DNA of 64,000 nucleotides, taken from Bacteroidota bacterium. GTDB taxonomy: Bacteria > Bacteroidota > Bacteroidia > UBA4408. Numbering within the stretch: the first letter of the stretch is position 1; each line of letters begins with the position of its first letter. The translations under genes and the position numbers were made by a program. Positions 11,735 to 41,173 of this stretch are shown one piece after another. The notes under the pieces were generated by a model that saw only the letters and a list, made by a program, of their open reading frames with translations, did not search any database and was not told where the DNA came from. The stretch lies in contig JADKCP010000004.1 in NCBI GenBank assembly GCA_016718805.1, positions 403,652 to 467,651 of the forward strand. Reading direction: 5' to 3'.

Positions 11735-12244
11735 ATGAAATCGCCTATACTATCATTAATTGTTGCAGCAGCCGAGAACAATGCCATTGGTAAAAACAAT
11801 GATTTAATTTGGCATTTGCCAACCGACATGAAGTATTTTAAAGATACTACTACCGGGCATTGTGTCATTATGGGGCGTAAAAATTACGATTCAATTCCAC
11901 TCAAATACCGGCCTTTATCGAACCGAACAAATATTATTGTTACTCGCCAAAAGGATTTTACTGCACCGGGTTGCCATGTCGCTTATTCATTAGAAGAAGC
12001 TATTTCTCGTGCAAAGGAAATTGAAGAGGTTGAAGTATTTATTATTGGCGGTGCAGAAATATATGCGCAAAGTATTTCCTTGGTAGATAGAATTTACCTT
12101 ACCCGTGTGCATCATTCGTTTGAAGCTGATGCATTTTTTCCAGAAGTAGATTTTAAGCACTATAAAATAAGAAGTTCGCTATTTGTGCAGAAGGATACGA
12201 AAAATCCATATTCCTTTACTATCACGATTTACGAAAAAAAATAA
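11735..12244 (+). CDS. folA: Dihydrofolate reductase.
   Basis: ILSLIVAAAENNAIGKNNDLIWHLPTDMKYFKDTTTG...IMGRKNYDSIP matches DHFR. It sits immediately downstream of thyA. Confidence 0.9.
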   Translation: MKSPILSLIVAAAENNAIGKNNDLIWHLPTDMKYFKDTTTGHCVIMGRKNYDSIPLKYRPLSNRTNIIVTRQKDFTAPGCHVAYSLEEAISRAKEIEEVEVFIIGGAEIYAQSISLVDRIYLTRVHHSFEADAFFPEVDFKHYKIRSSLFVQKDTKNPYSFTITIYEKK

Positions 12245-13837: not shown

Positions 13838-14344
13838 ATGATTCGATATACTACCAGCATTTTAAAATTTGACAAACAAGGTGAAAAAACAGGATGGACT
13901 TATTTAGTAATTCCAGCAGATATTGCTCAACAAATAAATCCCGGAATAAAAAAATCTTATCGCGTTAAAGGAAAACTTGATAACTATGTGTTTAGTGGTC
14001 TTACCATATTGCCGATGGGAGAAGGAGAATTCATCCTTCCATTAAAATTGGAAATACGAAAATCTATAGGTAAAAAACAGGGAGCTATGGTTTCGGTGGA
14101 ACTTGAATTTGATGCTACTGAATATGAAATTAATGCTGAATTTATTGCCTGTTTAAAGGATGAACCGGCTGCTTACAAAATTTTTTCGGCACTCCCAAAA
14201 TCGCATCAGCGTTATTATTCTAAATGGATTGAGAGTGCGAAAACCGATGCTACTCGTGCAAAACGCATACATTCAAGTATTTTAAGTTTCTTGAAAAATC
14301 AAACCTTTGCCGAACTGTTGCGTTCGCAAAAAAACCTTAGCTAA
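13838..14344 (+). CDS. DUF1905/YdeI (OmpD-associated) family protein.
   Basis: The N-terminal region ...YRVKGKLDNYVFSGLTILPMGEGEFILPLKLEIRKSIGKKQGAMVSVELE is DUF1905-like. The C-terminal ...ALPKSHQRYYSKWIESAKTDATRAKRI is YdeI-like. Confidence 0.65.
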   Translation: MIRYTTSILKFDKQGEKTGWTYLVIPADIAQQINPGIKKSYRVKGKLDNYVFSGLTILPMGEGEFILPLKLEIRKSIGKKQGAMVSVELEFDATEYEINAEFIACLKDEPAAYKIFSALPKSHQRYYSKWIESAKTDATRAKRIHSSILSFLKNQTFAELLRSQKNLS

Positions 14345-17300
14345 GTTGTTCTACAGTGCTATCTGATCGAACTTTATACTCGAGTCGTTTCATTTCATTA
14401 ATATCTAAACTATAAAAACCAAACTCTTCAACCACCTTTCCTGTTAGCAAATAACAGCCATTTCCGGTAAATGGAAATTGTTTTATAATAAGCGGAAAAT
14501 GCGTGGTATCAATCCAGTTGCCGGCTTTGTCTAAAAAAGTTCCGAAGCACATTTCATCGCCTCGCTTGGTACGCGTGCGTTTGCGTGTAACTAAATAGCC
14601 TACAATACGAACTAAATTTCCAAGATGCTCCTTAAATTCTGTTGCTAAACTGAGTGTAGTTAGAGTTGTGCTCAATTGATTTTCGTTCCCTTTTGTATTA
14701 GTGTCAGCAAGCTCTTTAATGAGGTCGAAGGGCGAGCAGAGCGGGAAACCTAAAATTTCAATCTGGTCCCATGCATCGTCTAAACTATGATGAAAAAGTG
14801 GTGGCAGGGTAAATTCGCGTTGCTCCACTTCAAACAGTTCGTGTCGTGTACTTGTCTTTTTTTGAGCCCCTATTTGCGTGTGAATGTCCCAAAGAAGTTG
14901 CTTCTTTGAACGGCTCGTAAACTCAAATGCTCCTACCCGAATGAGTATGCGCAATTGTTCCACCGAAATATCCACACGGCTCATAAAATTTTGCAGAGAG
15001 CTGAATACTCCGTGCGCTTTACGTTCATTGATTAGTTGAGTAATAACGTTTGTTTCAAATTCGGCTAGGTGATCAAATCCAATGTAAATTACCTTGCCTT
15101 TAATGATAGTTTTTGCTTCACTGTGGTTGATGTGTGGTGCATGAATTATTGCTCCGCACAAACGCGCTTCATGAAAATAAATTTCGGGGCGGTAAAAACC
15201 TCCGCCATTATTGATTACAGCCACCATGTACTCGAGCGGAAAATGTGTTTTTAAAAACATGCACTGATAGCTCTCAACAGCATAGGAAGCCGAATGTCCT
15301 TTGCTAAACGCATATCCTGCAAAGCTTTCAATTTGTCGCCACACTTCTTTTGTGATAGTATCGGGATATCCCTTTTGTTTACAATTGCTAAAAAATTTTT
15401 GCTCTACTTTTTTAAACTCTTCTCTCCCTCTGTATTTACCACTCATTCCGCGTCGCAGCATATCGGCATCGGCAAAACTTAATCCTGCAAAGTGATATGC
15501 CACTTTTATCACATCTTCTTGATACACCATTACACCAAAGGTATCGTGCAAAATTTCGTTAATTGCCTGAGGAGTTTGGTAGGATGGTTTCATACCTCGT
15601 GAACGCAAAATATACTCGCGCATCATTCCCGACGAAGCTACACCGGGGCGGATGATAGAACTAGCTGCAACCAAATCGAGATAGGTTTCGGCTTGCAGTT
15701 TTGTAAGCAACATACGCATGGCAGGACTTTCAACATAAAAGCATCCAATTAATCTGGCTTCTTTTAGATTTTTTCGAATCGCCGGGTCTTCCTTAAATTG
15801 CTGAACATTTCTGATATCAATGGATACCTGCTGATTATTCTGTATAATCGTTACAGCATCTCTTATTTTTCCTAAACCGCGCTGGGCAAGTATATCAAAC
15901 TTATACAAGCCAACATCTTCTGCTTCAAGCATACTAAACTGGGTTAGCGGAAAACCTTTGGGAGGATTGTTAAGTGCTGTATAGCGCGTAATGGGTTTCT
16001 CTGAAATCAGTATTCCTCCGGCATGTACACTCAGGTGATTGGGAAATGAATACAAGTGCTCGCCATACTTGCGGATGAGTTGTACAATGTGATCGGGTGT
16101 GCCCGGATTTCTTTTATTATCCACCAAGTCATCAATTTCTGCTTTGGGCAAACCGAATACTTTTCCCAATTCGCGGATGATGGAATTGTCTTTCATTTCG
16201 CTGTATGTTCCCAGCAAAGCAACAGTGCTGTTTCGGCTTTTCCCGTAAGGGGAACGGTAAAAAATATAATCGGTAACATCGGCACGTTCGGTGGATGAAA
16301 AATCAATATCAAAATCGGGAGGGCTTGTTCGAGAAGGATTGATGAAGCGTTCGAAATACAAATCGAGGTCAATGGGATCTACATCGGTAATACGCAGCAG
16401 GTAGGCAACCATTGAATTAGCGCCACTTCCACGGCCTACATAAAAATAATTTTGCGATTGTGCATAGCGAACAATGTCCCAATTAATCAAAAAGTAAGAA
16501 GTAAATCCTTGCGTAGTGATAACTTCAATTTCCTTTTTAAAACGTTCACGCACTTTTTCGTTCTGCACAGGATAACGGTAGGGTAAATTTTCGTAGCATA
16601 GCTTCAGCAGCAAATCGTAATCGCCTTGCTGAGTCCCTGTAAAATAGCGAAGGTTCTTATTTTGTTTGTATTCAAACTGAATGTTGCAAGCCTGCAGAAA
16701 TTGATTGGTATTGCTTATAAGTTGAGGAAACTCGTTGTACTGTGTAGCAAGTTCATCGCTCGTATAAAAAATTTCATCCGGGAGTGCTTGTTCGCTTATT
16801 GGGAGTTTACTGAGCAACATGTTATGGTCCATGGCACGTAGCAAACGATGTGCATTAAAATCCATCTTACTCCGAAAAGTTACCGGACTAAGCAGCAGCA
16901 TTTTTTTTTGCCATTCGCCGGGTTGAAAATCCTTCATCACTTGTTGTAGTGAAAACAGCTGTCGTGCATGTATTCCAATAAATTCGTGAGAGGCCAGGTC
17001 TTTTATTTTAGTAAATGTGCTTTTCAAATTCGCTTCATTCGTTGCTTCTTTACATGCGTGAAGGTATTGATAGGGGTAAATTATATAAGCGTTTTCAAAG
17101 ACAGGAGCACGGTCATCGATACTTTGATTGTGTGTAAGGTGTGCCGTAAGAAAACGGTTGAGTTCGTCAAAGCCATCGTTGTTTTTGGCAATTCCGATAA
17201 ATTTTTGTGCTGCGCCATTTCTAAAATCAATACCCACCACGGGCTTAATTCCATAGTTGGGTGCCAGTCTAACAAAATCCAAAACTGCCGAGGTGTTATT

Positions 17301-17414
17301 AATATCGGTAAGGGCCAATTGGGTGCATCCCTTTAGTTTTGCCTCATGCAGTAGTTGTTCGGTGCTCATGGTACCAAACTTAAAGCTATAGTAGGTGTGG
17401 CAATTGAGGTACAT
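14337..17414 (-). CDS. dnaE2: Error-prone DNA polymerase III alpha-like polymerase DnaE2 (ImuC).
   Basis: 1025 aa. N-terminal PHP domain MYLNCHTYYSFKFGTMSTEQLLHEAKLKGCTQLALTDINN. The size and the location downstream of a Y-family polymerase gene are typical of DnaE2. Confidence 0.85.
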   Translation of the reverse strand: MYLNCHTYYSFKFGTMSTEQLLHEAKLKGCTQLALTDINNTSAVLDFVRLAPNYGIKPVVGIDFRNGAAQKFIGIAKNNDGFDELNRFLTAHLTHNQSIDDRAPVFENAYIIYPYQYLHACKEATNEANLKSTFTKIKDLASHEFIGIHARQLFSLQQVMKDFQPGEWQKKMLLLSPVTFRSKMDFNAHRLLRAMDHNMLLSKLPISEQALPDEIFYTSDELATQYNEFPQLISNTNQFLQACNIQFEYKQNKNLRYFTGTQQGDYDLLLKLCYENLPYRYPVQNEKVRERFKKEIEVITTQGFTSYFLINWDIVRYAQSQNYFYVGRGSGANSMVAYLLRITDVDPIDLDLYFERFINPSRTSPPDFDIDFSSTERADVTDYIFYRSPYGKSRNSTVALLGTYSEMKDNSIIRELGKVFGLPKAEIDDLVDNKRNPGTPDHIVQLIRKYGEHLYSFPNHLSVHAGGILISEKPITRYTALNNPPKGFPLTQFSMLEAEDVGLYKFDILAQRGLGKIRDAVTIIQNNQQVSIDIRNVQQFKEDPAIRKNLKEARLIGCFYVESPAMRMLLTKLQAETYLDLVAASSIIRPGVASSGMMREYILRSRGMKPSYQTPQAINEILHDTFGVMVYQEDVIKVAYHFAGLSFADADMLRRGMSGKYRGREEFKKVEQKFFSNCKQKGYPDTITKEVWRQIESFAGYAFSKGHSASYAVESYQCMFLKTHFPLEYMVAVINNGGGFYRPEIYFHEARLCGAIIHAPHINHSEAKTIIKGKVIYIGFDHLAEFETNVITQLINERKAHGVFSSLQNFMSRVDISVEQLRILIRVGAFEFTSRSKKQLLWDIHTQIGAQKKTSTRHELFEVEQREFTLPPLFHHSLDDAWDQIEILGFPLCSPFDLIKELADTNTKGNENQLSTTLTTLSLATEFKEHLGNLVRIVGYLVTRKRTRTKRGDEMCFGTFLDKAGNWIDTTHFPLIIKQFPFTGNGCYLLTGKVVEEFGFYSLDINEMKRLEYKVRSDSTVEQLS

Positions 17415-17419
17415 GTTGC

Positions 17420-19246
17420 TTAGCTATTTCCTGATAGGTTGCCGGTATTACAAAATTCAAATTCGCCCAAGCTGAAGCATTGCTCAAAGGCGCTCTTGCG
17501 TTTGAGCAGCGTAATGCTTTGCGCAATAAAAGAGGTTTGGTATTGCTTGGTTTGGTATTCGGGTTGAGCCTTGTTAAAGGTTTCGCCGGTGAGCTCCCCT
17601 GCCAGTAAAAGACTAAAGCGGTAATGAAAGGTAGCGCGGCTTGGGGGCAGTTGCAATTTGAGTCGCAAGGTCTTGCTGAAATCACTTCCTCCACGTGCCG
17701 CTTTTACCGGAATATGAATGTTTGATGGGGTTGCAACATCAAAGTTGCAGAGCTGTACTTCAAAAGGCTGTTGTGCCACGCATACAGCTTCAATGGTTTC
17801 AATGAGGTTTTGTTCTTTGCTTTCATCGAGTTGCAAAACGGCGAGTTCAATTTGTGGAATATTTTTTTCGGCACGTAGAAATCCGTAGTGTTGTGCAAAG
17901 TGTTTTTTTTCGTTCAGTAGTTCGTTTTTAACCTTTGCGGGAAGTGTGATTAACAACCTGTATTCATATTCTTCCTCGTTTAGTTTTCCTTTTTTATCGG
18001 GCGATGATGACACTCCGTTAAAAGGATTAAAGGTTCGTAATGAATTAGACAGGGCCACGGCACGATGTACAGCTTGCGGGCCGTACAAAATGCGCATTTT
18101 ATCCATCGCTTGATACAAATTAATTAGTTGTTCGCTATCTTCAAATAAATTGATTTGATAGCCTCCGCCCACGAGGTTACTAAAGCGCACGCCAATGAGG
18201 CGAATGAGCATGCGCCGGCTATACAATTTTTCGAACAATTCTTTTACGCGTGCAATGAGTACATGATCGTTGGAGCTATGCGCGATGCGGCATTGCATGG
18301 TATGTGTATCAAAATTTGAATACCTAATTTTAACGGTAACACAAGCAGTTAGTTTGTTTTCGCTGCGAAGTTGAAAGGCCAGTTTTTCGACCATTTTAAT
18401 TAAAATGTTCTTGAGTTTTTGCACGTCAATGGTATCGGTATCGAAGGTTTCTTCGCTCGAAATACTTTTGCGTTCGCTGTAAGGCTCAACCGGGGAAGTA
18501 TCAATTCCGTTGGCTTTTCGCCAGATGCTGCCTCCATTTTCGCCCAGTACATTTTGCATTAATTCGAGGGGCATTTGTTGCAGTGTATGTACTTTTTCTA
18601 TTCCCATGCTGCGCAACAGTGTATAGGTTTTTTCGCCAATCATGGGAATTTTTTTTACCGAAAGTGGCGCCAAAAAAGATTTTTCGCAACCCGGATCTAC
18701 CTTCATCTGGTTGTTGGGTTTTGCTTCGTCGGTAGCGACTTTGCTCACCGTTTTGTTGGGCGACATGCCAAATGAAATGGGAAGTCCGGTTTCGCGCATG
18801 ATTCGTCGGCGTAGTTCTGTAGCATAGTTGTAGCAGCCAAAAAACTTATCCATTCCGGTAAAATCCATGTAAAATTCGTCAATAGAAGAGCGTTCAAAAA
18901 GGGGAACGTATTCGCCAATAATCTGTGTTACTTCGTCGGAGCGTTTGCTGTATTCTTCGTAATCGCCTCGTACCACAAGGGCGTGCGGGCAGAGGCGTTT
19001 GGCCAGTTTCATGGGCATTGCCGAATGAATTCCGAAGGCGCGTGCTTCGTAACTGCAGGCTGCCACCACTCCCCTGTCGCTGCTTCCGCCTACCAACACA
19101 GGTTTTCCAATCAATTCGGGATGCATGAGCCGCGATACCGAAACAAAATAGCTGTCTAAATCCATGTGCACAATGGTGCGGTTCACTTCGCCTTCGAGGC
19201 CTTTCCAACTATACGGACTATGCAGTTGTTTATTGTTGTTGTGCAT
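17420..19246 (-). CDS. dinB: Y-family DNA polymerase (DinB/Pol IV type with catalytic residues retained) carrying an uncharacterised ~210-aa C-terminal extension. It occupies the ImuB position of a mutagenesis cassette.
   Basis: HMDLDSYFVSVS and SIDEFYMDFTG correspond to the E. coli DinB motifs VDMDCFF and SLDEAYLDVT. The protein is 608 aa versus ~350 aa for typical DinB. Its start codon lies 2 nt after the radical SAM stop, and its stop lies 5 nt before the dnaE2 start. Confidence 0.8.
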   Translation of the reverse strand: MHNNNKQLHSPYSWKGLEGEVNRTIVHMDLDSYFVSVSRLMHPELIGKPVLVGGSSDRGVVAACSYEARAFGIHSAMPMKLAKRLCPHALVVRGDYEEYSKRSDEVTQIIGEYVPLFERSSIDEFYMDFTGMDKFFGCYNYATELRRRIMRETGLPISFGMSPNKTVSKVATDEAKPNNQMKVDPGCEKSFLAPLSVKKIPMIGEKTYTLLRSMGIEKVHTLQQMPLELMQNVLGENGGSIWRKANGIDTSPVEPYSERKSISSEETFDTDTIDVQKLKNILIKMVEKLAFQLRSENKLTACVTVKIRYSNFDTHTMQCRIAHSSNDHVLIARVKELFEKLYSRRMLIRLIGVRFSNLVGGGYQINLFEDSEQLINLYQAMDKMRILYGPQAVHRAVALSNSLRTFNPFNGVSSSPDKKGKLNEEEYEYRLLITLPAKVKNELLNEKKHFAQHYGFLRAEKNIPQIELAVLQLDESKEQNLIETIEAVCVAQQPFEVQLCNFDVATPSNIHIPVKAARGGSDFSKTLRLKLQLPPSRATFHYRFSLLLAGELTGETFNKAQPEYQTKQYQTSFIAQSITLLKRKSAFEQCFSLGEFEFCNTGNLSGNS

Positions 19247-19248
19247 GG

Positions 19249-20325
19249 TTAAAATAATTCGGTTTGACCGTTTAGCGGCGGTCGTTTAAACAAGGTAAAA
19301 TCCTGTGCTGGCATTGATCGTCCGGCCAGGTGAAGCTTTACGGAAAGGCTAAACAGTTGCTTGATGCTTTCGGCAATTTTTCCTTCGCCGCGCATACGTA
19401 TTCCGGGGCGTGAATCGTTTACCTTGCCACCGTGGCAGGCCTCAATGTGATTCCATATTTTATCGGCAGCATCGGGTTTATTTTTATACAGCCAATCGCG
19501 AAAAATGCTTGCTATTTCGCCGTTTAAGCGTACAATGGTATAGCCGGCGGTAGCGGCACCGCAATCGGCTGCGGCTTTAACTATATCGGGAATTTCGTCG
19601 CTGTTTAATCCGGGAATGATGGGAGCTACCATTACTCCAACCGGCACCTTGTTTTGGGCGAGGGTTTCAATTACTTGCAATCGCTTTTTGCTGGTAGCGG
19701 TGCGGGGTTCCATACTGCTGCGAAGTTCTTCGCGTAAGCTGGTAACCGAAATCATTACGCGCAGTAAATTTAGTTGCGCGAGCTCGGTAAGTATATCCAA
19801 ATCGCGTAGCAGCAGCGAATTTTTTGTAATAATGCCTACGGGGTTTTTGTATTCGAGACAGGTTTGGAGCAGGCTTCGGGTTATCTTATAGGTTCGTTCG
19901 AGGGGTTGGTAGCAATCGGTATTTCCTGAAAAGGAAATGCACTCAACTCGATACTTGGGGTGATTAAAATGCTTGCGCAACAATTCGGAAGCAGTGGGTT
20001 TTACCATAATTTTGCGTTCAAAATCGAGGCCTGCGCTAAAGCCATAATAGTTGTGGGTATTTCGCGCATAGCAATACACACAGCCGTGTTCGCAGCCCTG
20101 GTAGGGGTTTGCGCTGCTCATCATGCCTACATCGGGACTGGTAATTTTGTTTACCAGGGTTTTAGGATAGTCCATGTACACTTCTGTTTTTTCGTCGCCG
20201 ATGAGTGGTTCATCAAGGCCTTCGATGTGTTCGGCCAGTACCTGGTATTTTAAGAAGCGGTTAGCCGTGTGAATTTGTGCGCCTCTGCCTTTAAGATAGG
20301 AACTATCGGGTAGGTTTTTCGGCAT
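19249..20325 (-). CDS. Radical SAM protein of the COG1533/SplB-like (DNA repair photolyase-like) type. It is the first gene of the operon.
   Basis: CEHGCVYCYARNTH is a CxxxCxxC motif. 358 aa. Translationally coupled to the dinB-like gene. Confidence 0.7.
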   Translation of the reverse strand: MPKNLPDSSYLKGRGAQIHTANRFLKYQVLAEHIEGLDEPLIGDEKTEVYMDYPKTLVNKITSPDVGMMSSANPYQGCEHGCVYCYARNTHNYYGFSAGLDFERKIMVKPTASELLRKHFNHPKYRVECISFSGNTDCYQPLERTYKITRSLLQTCLEYKNPVGIITKNSLLLRDLDILTELAQLNLLRVMISVTSLREELRSSMEPRTATSKKRLQVIETLAQNKVPVGVMVAPIIPGLNSDEIPDIVKAAADCGAATAGYTIVRLNGEIASIFRDWLYKNKPDAADKIWNHIEACHGGKVNDSRPGIRMRGEGKIAESIKQLFSLSVKLHLAGRSMPAQDFTLFKRPPLNGQTELF

Positions 20326-20345
20326 TTTTTAAACTTTTATAATGT

Positions 20346-20382
20346 TTGTATTACAATCATTTTTGTGATTACAATATAATCA
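20346..20382. promoter_or_regulatory. Candidate operator region of the LexA-like repressor, in the divergent intergenic region.
   Basis: Inverted repeats TTGTA-T-TACAA (20346-20356) and TGATTA-CAATA-TAATCA (20366-20382). ATTACAAT occurs twice as a direct repeat, 25-60 bp upstream of the radical SAM start codon. Confidence 0.3.
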
Positions 20383-20836
20383 TTTATATTTGCAGCAAGA
20401 AAAAATTTTACCACAAAGTTTGCACAGGACAAAAGCACCAATAAGAAAGTTTTTTAGTTCTAGTTGATTAGTAGTCGGCTCTTCGCCTTTGTAAATTTTG
20501 TGGTTTAATTTTTTTTCTCTGAAATGCGTAGATGAGCCGATTATTGGTGAGAATTATATAGAACGCTGATTTGATTAAGATGATTATGATTTTTTAGGAT
20601 TTATTTTCTTGGGAAAAGGGTCTAGAAATTACGGAAAACAGCAAATGTAGATTTCGTGTATTTCAATTGATTTTAAAAAGAGAATAAATGGAATTGAGGT
20701 AATCGATTGTGTTTGGTAATGCTGCAGTTTTAACCCCTGAAAAATTGACTGAACATAAGTTTGTGTTAACAGTGTTTATTACTTGTGCAAAGGATTTAAA
20801 AATTTTAAAAACCTACTAATTTAAACCTCAAAAGCT

Positions 20837-21478
20837 ATGTATTTCAGCAACAACATTAAACTTCTGCGTCAGCGCAAACAGCGTACACAGGATGTGGTGG
20901 CAGGAGAACTCGGAATGAGTCGCTCAACCTTTAACAGCTATGAAAATGGATTAATTACCAATCCAACCATAGATGCACTTATTGGCTTTTCGAGCTATTT
21001 TAAATTGTCGATTGATACTCTTGTAAAAGTGGACTTAAGTAAACTGTCGGAAAGTAAAATGCGGGAGCTTGAACAAGGGCACGATGATTTTATAAAAGGC
21101 ACCAAATTGAGGGTGTTGGCAACTACTGTAGACAGTAAAAACCGCGACAACATTGAATTGGTTCCGGTAAAAGCGAAAGCGGGTTATACAGCCGGTTATA
21201 ACGATCCTGAGTACATTAGTTCATTACCTACTTTTCAGTTACCCTTTTTATCGCCCGACCGCAAATACCGCACATTTCAGATAAGTGGCGACAGCATGTT
21301 ACCCATACCCGATAAAAGTTATGTAACCGCCGAGTTTGTGGATAATTGGATGAACGTAAAAGATGGCAATGCTTACATAGTGCTTACACAGGACGATGGG
21401 GTAGTTTTTAAAGTGCTTTACAATCAGCTTCGCAGCAAAAAAAAAGTTGTTGTTGAAATCACTCAACGCTGCTTATGA
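20837..21478 (+). CDS. Non-canonical LexA-like repressor (HTH_XRE plus S24 peptidase). The frame is broken in an A9 tract, and the C-terminal part continues in the next ORF.
   Basis: The N-terminal LRQRKQRTQDVVAGELGMSRSTFNSYENG is an XRE-type HTH. ISGDSMLP contains the catalytic Ser and VFKVL the catalytic Lys. The ORF ends 13 codons after the A9 tract at 21437-21445. Confidence 0.7.
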   Translation: MYFSNNIKLLRQRKQRTQDVVAGELGMSRSTFNSYENGLITNPTIDALIGFSSYFKLSIDTLVKVDLSKLSESKMRELEQGHDDFIKGTKLRVLATTVDSKNRDNIELVPVKAKAGYTAGYNDPEYISSLPTFQLPFLSPDRKYRTFQISGDSMLPIPDKSYVTAEFVDNWMNVKDGNAYIVLTQDDGVVFKVLYNQLRSKKKVVVEITQRCL

Positions 21479-21656
21479 GCCCTATGAATTAAATTTGAAT
21501 GAAGTACGTGAAATTTGGAAATTTATTAATTACATCAGCCACGAATTGCCCGAGCCCGAAGGCAATAAAGACGAACTGCTGAATACAGTTAACCAACTTC
21601 AAAAAGAGGTAACAAAAATATCGAACAAATTAAAAAAGGGGACTGTAATTAAATGA
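21447..21656 (+). CDS. Probable C-terminal continuation of the LexA-like S24 domain, read in the +1 frame.
   Basis: The frame reads KKKLLLKSLNAAYEPYELNLNEVREIWKFINYI. The AYEP and I-x-Y-I pattern resembles the beta-strands that follow the catalytic Lys in LexA/UmuD. Removing one A from the A9 tract fuses it to 20837..21478, giving ~272 aa. Confidence 0.5.
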   Translation: MLLKSLNAAYEPYELNLNEVREIWKFINYISHELPEPEGNKDELLNTVNQLQKEVTKISNKLKKGTVIK

Positions 21657-34865: not shown

Positions 34866-34941
34866 AAACAGAATGAGAATGAGAGGGAGAAACATAATAA
34901 GAAGGGTCGCTCTTCGCTCTCATTCTCATTCTCATTCTGTT
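34866..34941 (-). terminator. Long hairpin terminator closing the transcription unit of tRNA-Ala plus the repeat array on the minus strand.
   Basis: About 20-bp inverted repeat AAACAGAATGAGAATGAGAG ... CTCTCATTCTCATTCTGTTT with a ~35-nt loop. On the minus strand it is followed by a T-rich tract. It shares the GAGAATGAGAATGAG motif with the hairpin at 6290-6357. Confidence 0.55.
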
Positions 34942-34943
34942 TA

Positions 34944-35591
34944 GTGGAGAATACCGGATTCGAACCGGTCACCTTCCCGATGGATCGGGACGCTCTTGCT
35001 TTTTTTTTGTGGAGAATACCGGATTCGAACCGGTCACCTTCCCGATGGATCGGGACGCTCTTGCTTTTTTTGTGGAGAATACCGGATTCGAACCGGTCAC
35101 CTTCCCGATAGATCGGGACGCTCTTGCTTTTTTTTTTTTGTGGAGAATACCGGATTCGAACCGGTCACCTTCCCGATGGATCGGGACGCTCTTGCTTTTT
35201 TTTGTGGAGAATACCGGATTCGAACCGGTCACCTTCCCGATAGATCGGGACGCTCTTGCTTTTTTTTGTGGAGAATACCTGATTCGAACCGGTCACCTTC
35301 CCGATAGATCGGGACGCTCTTGCTTTTTTTTTGTGGAGAATACCGGATTCGAACCGGTCACCTTCCCGATGGATCGGGACGCTCTTGCTTTTTTTTTGTG
35401 GAGAATACCGGATTCGAACCGGTCACCTTCCCGATAGATCGGGACGCTCTTGCTTTTTTTTTGTGGAGAATACCGGATTCGAACCGGTCACCTTCCCGAT
35501 AGATCGGGACGCTCTTGCTTTTTTTTGTGGAGAATACCGGATTCGAACCGGTCACCTTCCCGATAGATCGGGACGCTCTTGCTTTTTTTTT
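34944..35591 (-). repeat. Tandem array of 10 units, each 63-68 bp. Each unit is the 3'-terminal ~31 nt of tRNA-Ala (variable loop, T arm, acceptor 3' strand and CA) plus a 34-nt flank containing the palindrome CCCGAT(G/A)GATCGGG and an A8-13 tract. Coordinates are given on the tRNA strand.
   Basis: On the plus strand each unit reads GTGGAGAATACCGGATTCGAACCGGTCACCTTCCCGAT(G/A)GATCGGGACGCTCTTGC(T)7-12. Units start at 34944, 35009, 35072, 35140, 35204, 35268, 35333, 35398, 35463 and 35527. Unit 6 carries a G-to-T change (CCTGATTC). Confidence 0.9.
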
Positions 35592-35592
35592 G

Positions 35593-35666
35593 TGGAGAAT
35601 ACCGGATTCGAACCGGTCACCTCTTGCCTGCCAGGCAAGCGCTCTAGCCAAATGAGCTAATTCCCC
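35593..35666 (-). tRNA. tRNA-Ala (anticodon GGC).
   Basis: The reverse complement reads GGGGAATTAGCTCATTTGGCTAGAGCGCTTGCCTGGCAGGCAAGAGGTGACCGGTTCGAATCCGGTATTCTCCA. It has the G3:U70 Ala identity pair, anticodon loop CTGGCAG and discriminator A. Confidence 0.9.
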
Positions 35667-38721: not shown

Positions 38722-39096
38722 ATGAAAAAAACACTTTTACCTATTTTACTTGCAAGTGTTTGGATCAGCATTTCCGAATTTTTTAGAAATAGTCTACTGC
38801 TACATGAGCATTGGGTTGTTCATTATCAAAAACGAGGAATACTATTTCCTGAAAGCCCAGTAAATGGTATAATTTGGGGTATATGGTCAATTTGTTTTGC
38901 TTGTGTGATTTTTATGTTGAGTAAAAAATATTCGCTCCTTCAAACCACGCTTTTTTCATGGTTTATTGGTTTTGGATTAATGTGGATAGTACTGGCAAAT
39001 TTGAGCGTATTACCCTTTGCAATTTTGCCACTTGCTATACCCTTAAGTGTTTTTGAATCATTTGTTGCAAGCTATTGTATGTATAAATTTAAATAA
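38722..39096 (+). CDS. Hypothetical small integral membrane protein.
   Basis: 124 aa with 3-4 hydrophobic helices. Confidence 0.4.
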
Positions 39097-39145
39097 GCTT
39101 CATCCAAGTATCCGCTTCAATAAGTTAAAACTTGAGAACCAATTT

Positions 39146-41173
39146 ATGACTCAAACACAAGCAAAGTTTACCAATAAGCTCATTCACGAAACTAGTCCTT
39201 ATTTGTTACAGCATGCCCACAATCCGGTTGATTGGTATGCCTGGAACGAAAACACTTTGCAAAAAGCAAAAGATGAAAACAAATTATTGCTAATCAGCAT
39301 CGGTTATTCGGCATGTCATTGGTGCCATGTTATGGAGCACGAAAGTTTTGAAAACGAAGGAATAGCGCAGCTAATGAATGCTCACTTCATTTGTGTTAAA
39401 GTGGATAGAGAAGAGCGTCCTGATATTGATCAAGTATACATGAATGCCGTGCAGTTAATGACCGGCAGCGGCGGATGGCCACTGAATTGCTTTGCTCTGC
39501 CGGATGGTCGTCCTATTTATGGAGGTACTTATTTTCAACCTGAGCGCTGGAAAAATGTGTTGTTGAACATTGCTGATTTATACAGCAACGAACCTAACAA
39601 AGCTATTGAATATGCTCAAAAATTAGTAGATGGCATTCATCAAAGTGAACTCATAAAGCGTGAGGAAAAAGCAGCAGAATTTACCACTGAAGAGTTAGCA
39701 AAAATAGTTTCCGAATGGTGTAAACGCTTTGATACAATTGAAGGGGGAGCAGATAGAACTCCGAAATTTCCTTTACCTAATAACTATTTATTTTTGTTGC
39801 AGTTCGCCTTCCTTCAAAAAAGCCCTGCAATTGAAAGGCATGTGCATCTTACTTTACAAAAAATGGCAATGGGTGGAATTTATGATCAATTGGGAGGTGG
39901 ATTTGCTCGCTACTCAACCGATCATTTGTGGAAGGTACCTCATTTCGAAAAAATGTTGTACGACAATGCTCAGTTAGTGAGTTTGTACAGCGAAGCATTT
40001 CAAACTACACAAAAAGAGCTATACAAAAATGTAGTTGTTGAAACTCTCCGTTTTATTGAACGCGAAATGACTTCTACTGAAGGTGCATTTTATTCGGCTT
40101 TGGATGCCGACACTGAGGGAAAGGAAGGAAAATACTATGTATGGACAAAAGAAGAATTACAGCATTTGTTAGGTGAGGCTTTTGAAATTGCATCAACCTA
40201 CTATTCGGTAAATGAAATTGGCTATTGGGAAGAAGAAAACTACATTTTACTCAGAAAAAAAGAAGATCATGAATTGGCGCAAGCATTGAATTTAGATGAA
40301 GCTGAATTGCTTGTGAAGCTTGAAACGATAAAGAAGATACTACTCCATGCGCGAGAAAAAAGAGCAAGACCCGGCTTAGATGATAAAATTTTATGTTCGT
40401 GGAATGCATTGATGATTAAGGGATACAGCAATGCGTACAAGGTATTTGGCACAGAAAATTATTTACGAATAGCTGATGAAGCAGCCAAATTTATTTGCAA
40501 CAAAATGATGCAAGATGATTGTACTCTTCTTCATTCCTATAAAAATGGAAAGGCAGTAATCAATGGTTTTTTGGAAGATTATTGCTTTACAATAGAAGCT
40601 TATATTTCCTTGTACGATGTTACTTTTAATGAATTTTATTTAGAAGATGCTAAACGTCTTATGGATTATAGCATTGCGCATTTTTATGATTCGGAAAGCG
40701 GATTTTTCTTTTTTACATCGGACCTAGATGCTCCATTGATAGCGCGAAAGATGGAAACTTCCGACAATGTAATTCCTGCATCAAATTCAAGCATTGCCCA
40801 TTCTCTTTTTTTGTTAGGTCATTATTTTGATGTGCCCGATTATATAGATAAGTCACGTCAAATGCTTCGGAATGTGAAACGAATGATGCTACATTATGGA
40901 GAAGGTTATTCGAATTGGGCAAGGTTACAACTCTATGAGCTAACGCCATTTTACGAGATTGCAATTGTGGGAAATAACGCTGAAAAATTTCGGGTAGACC
41001 TTCAAAAAATCTATCTTCCCAATACACTAATTATGGGCTCAGCACACACAAGTAAGCTTCCTTTGCTTGAAAACAAATACGTTGAAAACAAAACTTTAAT
41101 ATACGTATGCAAGGAAAGAAATTGCTTTTTACCTGTTGAAACGGTTGATGATGCAATGAAGTTGCTGAAGTAA
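39146..41173 (+). CDS. Thioredoxin-domain protein of the YyaL/DUF255 family, with a six-hairpin glycosidase-like C-terminus.
   Basis: [54 protein letters not shown]... matches DUF255. The start is taken at the internal ATG 39146, which avoids overlap with the upstream gene. Confidence 0.8.

What the first reader, a model, noticed from the sequence alone, without database searches (positions are those of the whole stretch)
21437..21445. LexA-like repressor gene is split by a frameshift inside an A9 homopolymer
ORF 20837..21478 carries the HTH and the S24 catalytic Ser (GDSM) and Lys (VFKVL). It then runs into A9 at 21437-21445 and terminates 13 codons later (...KKKVVVEITQRCL*). The +1 frame (ORF 21447..21656) continues with LLLKSLNAAYEPYELNLNEVREIWKFINYI... 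This has the AYEP and hydrophobic beta-strand pattern expected for the remainder of an S24 domain. Removing one A (A8) would give a ~272-aa intact protein. Three explanations fit: a homopolymer sequencing error, a slipped-strand ON/OFF switch of the SOS repressor that would give constitutive mutagenesis-operon expression in the OFF state, or a true truncation that removes the last beta-strands and likely destabilises the dimer/cleavage domain.
Basis: seen in the sequence. Interest (0 to 1): 0.6.

Follow-up and report, generated by a model that had tools for sequence, protein, structure and literature searches.

The report
One extra A splits SOS repressor gene
A Bacteroidia SOS-repressor gene is broken here by one extra A in a run of eight, but every other assembly of the same species has the gene intact, so this is most likely an assembly error or a one-off mutation rather than a genetic switch.

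Summary
There is an A9 run at 21437-21445. It splits an HTH + S24-peptidase gene into ORF 20837-21478 and a +1-frame ORF 21447-21656. Deleting one A gives a 272-aa protein.

The gene belongs to the known Bacteroidetes "non-canonical LexA" family. It lies divergent to a radical-SAM / Pol IV / DnaE-like operon, with an operator-like palindrome pair between them.

The extra A is private to this assembly:
- The A8-corrected protein is identical to a protein seen on at least 52 public contigs.
- The 213-aa and 69-aa split products are absent from about 15 billion proteins.
- All 23 close-relative DNA copies that span the site are in frame.
- In a four-assembly alignment of 16 kb, the extra A is the window's only private difference.

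The tract is not conserved in other species, which have 2-7 A's. The lost segment is under purifying selection.

My estimates are: homopolymer-length consensus error about 0.55, genuine very recent slippage mutation about 0.37, and a phase-variable switch or programmed recoding 0.07 or less. Only raw reads can separate the first two. This is an ordinary, low-interest finding.

The parts
20837..21656 (+). Whole frameshifted gene for a Bacteroidetes-type non-canonical LexA (XRE/CI-type HTH, linker with an Ala-Gly site, S24 peptidase domain, terminal alpha-helix). It is 272 aa once one A is removed.
   Evidence: The A8-corrected product is identical to P0121 (NCBI MBK9673593.1 and others, 'LexA family transcriptional regulator'), which is seen on 52 contigs. 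The AF2 model's best Foldseek hits are LexA C-terminal domains 3k2z and 1jhh.
20837..21478 (+). ORF1, 213 aa: native residues 1-203 (HTH, A115-G116, S153, K192) plus 10 out-of-frame residues (VVVEITQRCL) and a stop.
   Evidence: HTH_3 35.6 bits; S24 only 19.4 bits, below the cut-off. This exact product is absent from the public collections.
21437..21445 (+). A9 homopolymer. It is one A longer than the A8 found in 21 of the 23 close-relative copies, and this extra A causes the frameshift.
   Evidence: It is the window's only private difference from three conspecific assemblies over 16 kb.
21447..21656 (+). ORF2 in the +1 frame, encoding native residues 204-272. These are the last three beta-strands of the S24 domain (about 203-207, 216-219 and 223-233) and the family-specific terminal helix (about 244-267).
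   Evidence: (invariant S208 N210 E217 E225 W227 F229 P238). All population differences in this segment are synonymous or within the stop codon.
20344..20381 (.). Pair of operator-like 15-bp palindromes 23 bp apart: GTTTGTATTACAATC (20344-20358, one mismatch) and GATTACAATATAATC (20367-20381, perfect). This is the putative binding site of the repressor, 19-56 bp from the radical-SAM start codon.
   Evidence: The same GAYTR-N5-YARTC motif occurs in 31 of 61 orthologue upstream regions against 2 of 61 coding controls, often as a pair about 23 bp apart. Binding is inferred, not shown.
20385..20392 (+). TATATTTG, a match to the Bacteroidetes -7 promoter box (TAnnTTTG; consensus from my own knowledge). 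It lies just downstream of the second palindrome and points towards the repressor gene.
   Evidence: Read directly from the sequence. The same arrangement is seen in relative L012. This is inference only.
14337..20325 (-). Divergent putative target operon. PA0069-family radical SAM at 19249-20325, Pol IV-type Y-family polymerase of 608 aa at 17420-19246, and DnaE-family polymerase of 1025 aa at 14337-17414.
   Evidence: Pfam. NCBIfam: NF033668 456.6 bits against a cut-off of 360; NF002677 297.4 against 256; TIGR00594 505.4 against 434. Synteny is conserved in relatives. The same gene types are reported as the regulon of this repressor family in PMC8565304.

Best explanation
The gene is an ordinary member of the Bacteroidetes non-canonical LexA family of SOS repressors. 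It has a CI/XRE-type HTH, a RecA-stimulated self-cleaving S24 domain and a terminal helix. It most likely represses the neighbouring radical-SAM / Pol IV / DnaE-like operon through a GATTR-N5-YAATC operator pair.

The split into two ORFs is most likely not biological. The assembly's consensus calls one A too many (A9 instead of A8) in a homopolymer, which is the commonest residual error type in long-read or hybrid metagenome assemblies. The organism would then make the normal 272-aa repressor.

Shown: the gene's identity, the extra A, that it is private to this assembly, and that the downstream frame is intact and under selection. Inferred: that the extra A is a base-calling or consensus error rather than a real mutation.
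For: 1. **Private to this assembly.** The A8-corrected protein is 100% identical to P0121, seen on 52 contigs and indexed in 65 blocks. The 213-aa and 69-aa split products are absent from about 15 billion proteins and from 153 billion gene positions.
2. **All other DNA copies are in frame.** 18 conspecific copies (99.6-99.97% identical DNA, or encoding the identical protein) and 5 relatives at 93-98% were read. 21 have A8 + G. Two, both from run SRR11088485, have an in-frame A9 through a synonymous G>A change.
3. **Only private difference.** In a 4-assembly alignment of 16 kb, the window's sole private difference is this A. It has no private SNP, against 5, 17 and 21 private differences in the other three assemblies.
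4. **No decay apart from the extra A.** The gene is otherwise identical to two intact alleles. All variation among seven conspecific alleles is synonymous or within the stop codon, including downstream of the tract.
5. **Homopolymer miscalls occur in this species' public assemblies.** Sister MAG GCA_016721255.1 (99.96% identical) has single-base homopolymer deletions (T6>T5, C3>C2, A8>A7). These split the 567-aa, 1563-aa and 1061-aa genes that are intact in the window. A JGI contig has a private A9 at another A8 tract. One of 80 orthologous genome loci (L048) has a different 1-nt frameshift.
6. **Hint of long-read data.** The window runs unbroken through a 683-bp tandem array of 96% matching copies. 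This suggests long reads, but that is an inference.
Against: The window's assembly is otherwise very clean. There is no other indel against short-read-type contigs over about 45 kb, and about 20 other runs of 8 or more are in frame. A consensus error is therefore a rare event here.

A8 tracts are also genuine replication-slippage hot spots, so a real mutation would look identical. The error here is an insertion, whereas the errors in the sister MAG are deletions.

The sequencing platform and reads of the source are unknown. The source assembly was not found in any searchable collection.
Confidence: 0.55

Rival explanations
1. Genuine, very recent replication-slippage mutation (A8>A9) in this strain or population, giving a null or hypomorphic repressor allele.

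The 213-aa product keeps the HTH, the Ala-Gly site, Ser153 and Lys192. It lacks three core beta-strands and the terminal helix, so it should fold and dimerise poorly. Repression of the radical-SAM / Pol IV / DnaE-like operon would then be relaxed.

Because A9 is at the length where RNA polymerase slips efficiently, some mRNAs (A8 or A11) could still yield full-length protein, making the allele leaky rather than null.
For: Homopolymers of this length are mutational hot spots. The assembly is otherwise accurate.

The tract varies naturally in the population. There is an in-frame A9 through G>A in run SRR11088485. One metagenome contig (L096) ends exactly after the eighth A, as expected at an assembly-graph branch.

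The family is dispensable in some Bacteroidetes lineages (PMC8565304). The 9A/9T slippage threshold and rescue of frameshift alleles are documented (PMC1088944).
Against: No second observation of the allele exists in any public assembly. There are no private SNPs in the flanking 16 kb.

The protein is under strong purifying selection, with 0 amino-acid changes among conspecific alleles and invariant residues in the lost part. A loss-of-function allele reaching consensus frequency would therefore be unusual.
Confidence: 0.37
2. Phase-variable contingency locus. The A tract is a selected slipped-strand switch that toggles the SOS repressor ON and OFF, creating mutator subpopulations.
For: The only support is that the tract sits in a regulator of error-prone polymerases, that one OFF-length allele (this window) exists, and that the tract length varies (A8 or in-frame A9) in the population.
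Against: The tract is not conserved. It is AAAAAGAAA in the next clade, 2-7 A's in other species, and the loop it encodes is variable.

A8 is a common length in this genome, including in frame in many genes. OFF alleles number 1 against 23 close-relative DNA copies and at least 52 contigs with the intact protein. No contingency-type features, such as a longer tract or multiple length classes, are present.
Confidence: 0.05
3. Programmed recoding. The split arrangement is the normal gene, and the full-length protein is made by programmed +1 ribosomal frameshifting or by transcriptional slippage at A9.
For: A9 is a known slippage-prone motif (PMC1088944).
Against: No orthologue has the split arrangement. 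All are single ORFs of 264-301 aa. Programmed recoding sites are conserved across relatives, and this one is not.
Confidence: 0.02

Closest known systems
Non-canonical LexA proteins of the Bacteroidetes (Sanchez-Osuna et al. 2021, Nucleic Acids Res 49:11050, PMC8565304)
   Same: - N-terminal PF01381 CI-type HTH.
- S24 domain with an Ala-Gly site and a Ser/Lys dyad.
- An extra terminal alpha-helix.
- Divergent placement next to DinB-type, DnaE-type and SplB-like radical SAM genes.
- Dyad-N5-dyad palindromic operators, often in pairs.

   Different: Neither published motif (GGA-N5-TCC, CTAA-N5-TTAG) occurs in the promoter region. This clade uses a GAYTR-N5-YARTC variant.

In this lineage the operators lie about 470 bp from the repressor start codon, not about 25-50 bp. 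Here the gene carries a 1-nt insertion.
Homopolymer-length consensus errors in long-read or hybrid metagenome-assembled genomes
   Same: A single-base indel in a run of 8 or more that splits an otherwise conserved gene and is private to one assembly. A sister MAG of the same species shows several such breaks.
   Different: The window has only this one discrepancy in about 45 kb that could be compared. It is an insertion, whereas those in the sister MAG are deletions. The platform of the source is unknown.
Frameshift alleles rescued by transcriptional slippage on 9A/9T runs (Baranov et al. 2005, Genome Biol 6:R25, PMC1088944; Thermus thermophilus dnaX)
   Same: An A9 run on the sense strand inside a coding sequence. 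Removing one A or adding two A's in the mRNA would restore the frame.
   Different: There is no evidence that slippage occurs in this organism. The arrangement is not conserved, so any rescue would be adventitious rather than programmed.
Homopolymer-based phase-variable (contingency) genes of Haemophilus, Neisseria and Campylobacter (my own knowledge)
   Same: A coding homopolymer whose length change switches the reading frame.
   Different: The tract is short, common in this genome, not conserved, and found out of frame only once. The target is a housekeeping regulator, not a surface or restriction-modification gene.

Membership tests
Bacteroidetes non-canonical LexA (PMC8565304) | N-terminal CI/XRE-type penta-helical HTH (PF01381) | tested here: met
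   HTH_3 at 35.6 bits against a cut-off of 23, residues 7-62. The AF2 model has helices at 3-64. PDB profile hits are XRE/SinR/CylR2 HTH proteins.
Bacteroidetes non-canonical LexA (PMC8565304) | C-terminal S24 peptidase domain with a Ser-Lys dyad and an Ala-Gly cleavage site | tested here: met
   For the A8-corrected protein, Peptidase_S24 scores 35.6 bits against 23.3. A115-G116, S153 and K192 are invariant in 43 homologues. Foldseek best hits are LexA C-terminal domains. For the ORF as written in the window the domain is incomplete (19.4 bits, below the cut-off).
Bacteroidetes non-canonical LexA (PMC8565304) | Terminating alpha-helical segment after the S24 domain | tested here: met
   Helix 244-267 in the AF2 model (moderate confidence). 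It is conserved in length across homologues. The feature is described.
Bacteroidetes non-canonical LexA (PMC8565304) | Palindromic operator (GGA-N5-TCC or CTAA-N5-TTAG, or a diverged dyad-N5-dyad) in its own or its target's promoter | tested here: inconclusive
   Both published motifs are absent from 20326-20836. A diverged GAYTR-N5-YARTC motif is present, as a pair in the window, and is enriched in orthologue promoters at 31/61 against 2/61. Binding was not tested.
Bacteroidetes non-canonical LexA (PMC8565304) | Genomic association with SOS-type genes (dinB/umuC, dnaE paralogue, splB-like radical SAM) | tested here: met
   Synteny is conserved in relatives.
Bacteroidetes non-canonical LexA (PMC8565304) | RecA-stimulated autocleavage and DNA-damage induction of the regulon | not testable with these tools
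   This needs biochemistry, or RT-qPCR after mitomycin C treatment.
Phase-variable contingency locus | Hypermutable tract conserved among strains, with both in-frame and out-of-frame lengths seen repeatedly | tested here: not met
   One out-of-frame copy (the window) against 23 in-frame close-relative DNA copies and at least 52 contigs with the intact protein. The tract is 2-7 A's in other species.
Phase-variable contingency locus | Tract longer than expected for the genome's composition | tested here: not met
   The window has 23 runs of A8/T8 and 10 runs of 9 or more in 64 kb, many of them in frame inside genes.
Programmed frameshift / programmed transcriptional slippage gene | Two-ORF arrangement and slippery site conserved in orthologues | tested here: not met
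   All orthologues are single ORFs.

The most novel reading that the evidence does not exclude
The A9 allele is real and leaky. Transcriptional slippage (or ribosome sliding) on the A9 run restores a minority of full-length repressor. This strain would then carry a hypomorphic SOS repressor with raised basal expression of the radical-SAM / Pol IV / DnaE-like cassette. That would be a naturally occurring, readily reversible (A9 to A8) mutator-like state in an uncultured Bacteroidia population.
Probability: 0.08. Interest if true: 0.45.

Novelty: already known. Interest (0 to 1): 0.12.

Why it matters
It matters little. If the extra A is an artefact, the only consequence is annotation hygiene: the gene should be read as an intact 272-aa LexA-family repressor. 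If it is a real mutation, it is a single strain's loss or weakening of a known SOS repressor by a known mechanism. That would be of local interest for mutagenesis in that population but would not be a new kind of system.

The by-products are modestly useful. They are a clade-specific operator variant (GAYTR-N5-YARTC, often in pairs about 23 bp apart) for the recently described Bacteroidetes non-canonical LexA family, and a clear example of how conspecific public assemblies can adjudicate a homopolymer frameshift.

Tried and rejected
- **Exact-pattern scan of genome contigs** for the tract with A8 or A9: 0 hits. The species representative differs by SNPs inside the pattern.
- **Locating the window's own source assembly** to learn its platform: not found. 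The split products are not on record, and no listed contig carries the A9+G allele.
- **The new motif GATTR-N5-YAATC across the whole window:** not enriched (12 matches against 10.2 expected). No further regulon members can be claimed here. The perfect match inside the repressor's own coding sequence (20949-20963) is treated as chance.
- **Profile search of PDB sequences:** only HTH proteins matched, with no S24 hit at the sequence level. The fold search was needed to recover the LexA C-terminal domains.
- **NCBIfam:** no specific model for this repressor family, only sub-threshold RstR/HipB HTH hits.
- **Literature search** for the accession numbers of the sister MAGs, to learn their sequencing platform: no paper found.
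- **A second frameshift at 38722-39096 / 39047-41173:** rejected. Relatives call the same 124-aa gene and a separate thioredoxin-domain gene.
- **A difference at the dnaE-like start** (1010 aa against 1025 aa calls): the DNA is identical, so this is only a gene-calling difference.

Full report
**Observation**

The window reads ...CTTCGCAGC-AAAAAAAAA-GTTGTTGTTG..., with the A run at exactly 21437-21445. ORF 20837-21478 encodes 213 aa ending SKKKVVVEITQRCL*. The +1-frame ORF 21447-21656 encodes 69 aa beginning LLKSLNAAYEPYEL. Removing one A joins them into a 272-aa protein.

Pfam finds HTH_3 (35.6 bits) in ORF1 but only a sub-threshold, truncated Peptidase_S24 match (19.4 bits against a gathering score of 23.3; profile positions 24-84 of 116). 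The joined protein scores 35.6 bits over positions 24-108.

The tract length itself is unremarkable for this 38% GC sequence. The window has 23 runs of A8/T8 and 10 runs of nine or more, and about 20 runs of eight or more lie in frame inside genes.

**What the gene is**

A search with the joined protein returns 5682 homologues. The best 120 are 264-301 aa long and cover 90-100% of the query. An alignment of 43 of them shows these residues invariant:
- A115-G116 (the S24 cleavage site), G151/S153/M154 and F191/K192 (the catalytic dyad).
- After the frameshift point: S208, N210, E217, E225, W227, F229 and P238.

An AlphaFold model of the 99%-identical P0001 has moderate confidence (mean pLDDT 64). 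It places strands at 203-207, 216-219 and 223-233 and a helix at 244-267. All of these are encoded downstream of the tract. Its best structural matches are LexA C-terminal domains (3k2z, 1jhh; rmsd 2.2-2.4 A over about 100 columns).

This architecture is a CI-type HTH, an S24 domain and an extra terminal helix. Together with the divergent neighbour operon, it matches the "non-canonical LexA" family of SOS repressors described for the Bacteroidetes by Sanchez-Osuna et al. 2021 (PMC8565304). NCBI names the identical intact protein "LexA family transcriptional regulator".

The neighbour operon consists of:
- a PA0069-family radical SAM protein, NF033668, 456.6 bits;
- a Pol IV-type Y-family polymerase, NF002677, 297.4 bits;
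- a DnaE-family polymerase.

**Operator**

The two published motifs are absent from the 512-bp divergent region. The region does contain GATTACAATATAATC (20367-20381) and, 23 bp upstream, GTTTGTATTACAATC (20344-20358).

The pattern GAYTR-N5-YARTC occurs in 31 of 61 orthologue upstream regions against 2 of 61 coding controls. It is often a pair about 23 bp apart, about 25 and 48 bp before the repressor start codon. It is a clade-specific variant of the family's dyad-N5-dyad operators. Binding is inferred, not shown.

In the window the pair lies 19-56 bp from the radical-SAM start and about 470 bp from the repressor start. The intergenic region is expanded here, at 512 bp against 128 bp in relative L005. 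It carries a different insertion in the species representative L008.

**Is the extra A shared by anything else?**

No.

- *Close relatives.* Five relatives at 93-98% nucleotide identity have A8: L001, L006, L007 and L008, with L111 a second fetch of the same JGI contig as L006. More distant relatives have AAAAAGAAA.
- *Same species.* Looking up window proteins by exact sequence brought in contigs of the same species from NCBI, JGI, ENA and Logan. Eighteen of these are 99.6-99.97% identical in DNA or encode the identical protein, and span the site. Sixteen read AGC-A8-GTTG. Two, both from run SRR11088485, read AGC-A9-TTG, a synonymous G>A change that stays in frame.
- *Closest samples.* One run (SRR35672333) gives a contig 100% identical to the window over 6.7 kb elsewhere, and it still has A8 here.
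- *Protein level.* The A8-corrected protein is identical to P0121, seen on 52 contigs and indexed in 65 blocks. The 213-aa and 69-aa split products are absent from about 15 billion proteins and 153 billion gene positions.
- *Four-way alignment.* Across 16 kb (window, L088, L089, L090), the extra A is the window's only private difference. The window has no private SNP, while the other three assemblies have 5, 17 and 21 private differences.
- *Selection.* Apart from this A, the gene is identical to two intact alleles. All variation among seven conspecific alleles is synonymous or within the stop codon, including sites downstream of the tract. The downstream frame is therefore under purifying selection in the population and shows no decay in the window.

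**Is it a switch?**

The tract is not conserved. Other species have 2-7 A's at this site, and the loop it encodes is variable in sequence. A8 is a common length in this genome. Only one out-of-frame copy exists. The split arrangement is not seen in any orthologue, which rules out programmed recoding. The defining features of a contingency locus were tested and not met.

**Artefact or real mutation?**

Both would look the same in a consensus sequence.

*For an artefact.* Besides the privacy of the allele, public assemblies of this very species contain such errors. The sister MAG GCA_016721255.1 is 99.96% identical. It has single-base homopolymer deletions (T6>T5 at about 28031 and about 47928, C3>C2 at about 48183, A8>A7 at about 777). 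These split the 567-aa, 1563-aa and 1061-aa genes that are intact in the window and in other assemblies. A JGI contig has a private A9 at another A8 tract. One of 80 orthologous genome loci (L048) has an unrelated 1-nt frameshift. The window runs through a 683-bp tandem array, which suggests long-read data; this is an inference.

*For a real event.* The window is otherwise very accurate, with no other indel against short-read-type contigs over about 45 kb. A8 runs are genuine slippage hot spots. The tract does vary in nature (the in-frame A9). One metagenome contig (L096) ends exactly after the eighth A, as at an assembly-graph branch.

I put the artefact at about 0.55 and a real private mutation at about 0.37.

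**If the mutation is real**

The 213-aa product keeps the HTH, the cleavage site, Ser and Lys. It lacks three core strands and the terminal helix. It should therefore fold and dimerise poorly, and repression of the divergent operon would be relaxed (inference and from established LexA/CI biology).

Nine A's is the length at which bacterial RNA polymerases slip efficiently, and frameshift alleles of this kind can be partly rescued (PMC1088944). The allele could therefore be leaky rather than null. This is untested.

**Verdict**

The switch idea is not supported. The finding is an ordinary homopolymer frameshift, probably an assembly error, in a member of a known repressor family.

Noticed in passing
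window 34940-35666 (- strand): A tRNA-Ala(GGC) gene at 35592-35666 is followed directly by about 10.5 tandem 65-bp copies (96% matches). Each unit repeats the tRNA's T-arm and 3' acceptor strand plus a short hairpin-forming insert, and the units are separated by A7-A12 runs. The array is also present in conspecific assemblies, with different run lengths. Its origin and function are unknown.
   Followed up: partly
window 20326-20836; L008 3287-3984: The divergent intergenic region is 512 bp here, against 128 bp in relative L005. This puts the operator pair and a -7-like box about 450 bp upstream of the repressor start codon. In the species representative L008 the same region carries a different, roughly 700-bp insert with a small ORF (MTENEISKLVYDS...) that I recognise from memory as resembling a GxxExxY/PD-(D/E)xK-type protein. 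The spacer appears to be an insertion hot spot.
   Followed up: partly
L088 / L098 / L105 (GCA_016721255.1, JADKIM010000003.1), equivalent to window ~777, ~28031, ~47928, ~48183: The 99.96%-identical public MAG has several single-base homopolymer deletions. They split genes that are intact in the window (567-aa, 1563-aa and 1061-aa proteins), which indicates residual consensus errors in that assembly.
   Followed up: yes
L092 / L116 (Logan SRR11088485): A natural allele of the repressor gene has AGC-A9-TTG. A synonymous AAG>AAA change lengthens the in-frame run to nine A's, so a more slippage-prone but intact version exists in the population.
   Followed up: yes
L096 (GCA_020050275.1, JAHZTE010259996.1), end of contig = window 21444: A 2279-bp metagenome contig stops exactly after the eighth A of the tract. 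This may mark an assembly-graph branch, meaning sequence variation at this position in that sample, or it may be coincidence.
   Followed up: no
L048 4001-4782 (JBJTQS010000087.1): The orthologous repressor gene in another MAG has its own 1-nt frameshift (GTAAACCCA read as GTAACCCA near codon 42). It is the only one of 80 genome loci with a broken frame.
   Followed up: partly
window 16901-16909 (T9 on +, A9 on the coding strand of the DnaE-like gene 14337-17414): The DnaE-family polymerase gene of the putative SOS operon contains an in-frame A9 run at about 16% of its length. This is the only other 9-mer inside a real gene in the window. Runs of this length are slippage-prone.
   Followed up: no
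window 17420-19246 (-): The Pol IV-type polymerase is 608 aa. It has a C-terminal extension of about 230 aa beyond the IMS/IMS_C domains, which in relatives matches PF13563 (2_5_RNA_ligase2, a 2H-phosphoesterase-like family). This is an unusual fusion for a translesion polymerase.
   Followed up: no
window 12234-12241; L106 (JGI Ga0272412_1004974): A JGI contig has A9 where the window and other assemblies have A8, at the very 3' end of the dihydrofolate reductase gene. This is another private A8>A9 difference in a public assembly of this species.
   Followed up: no
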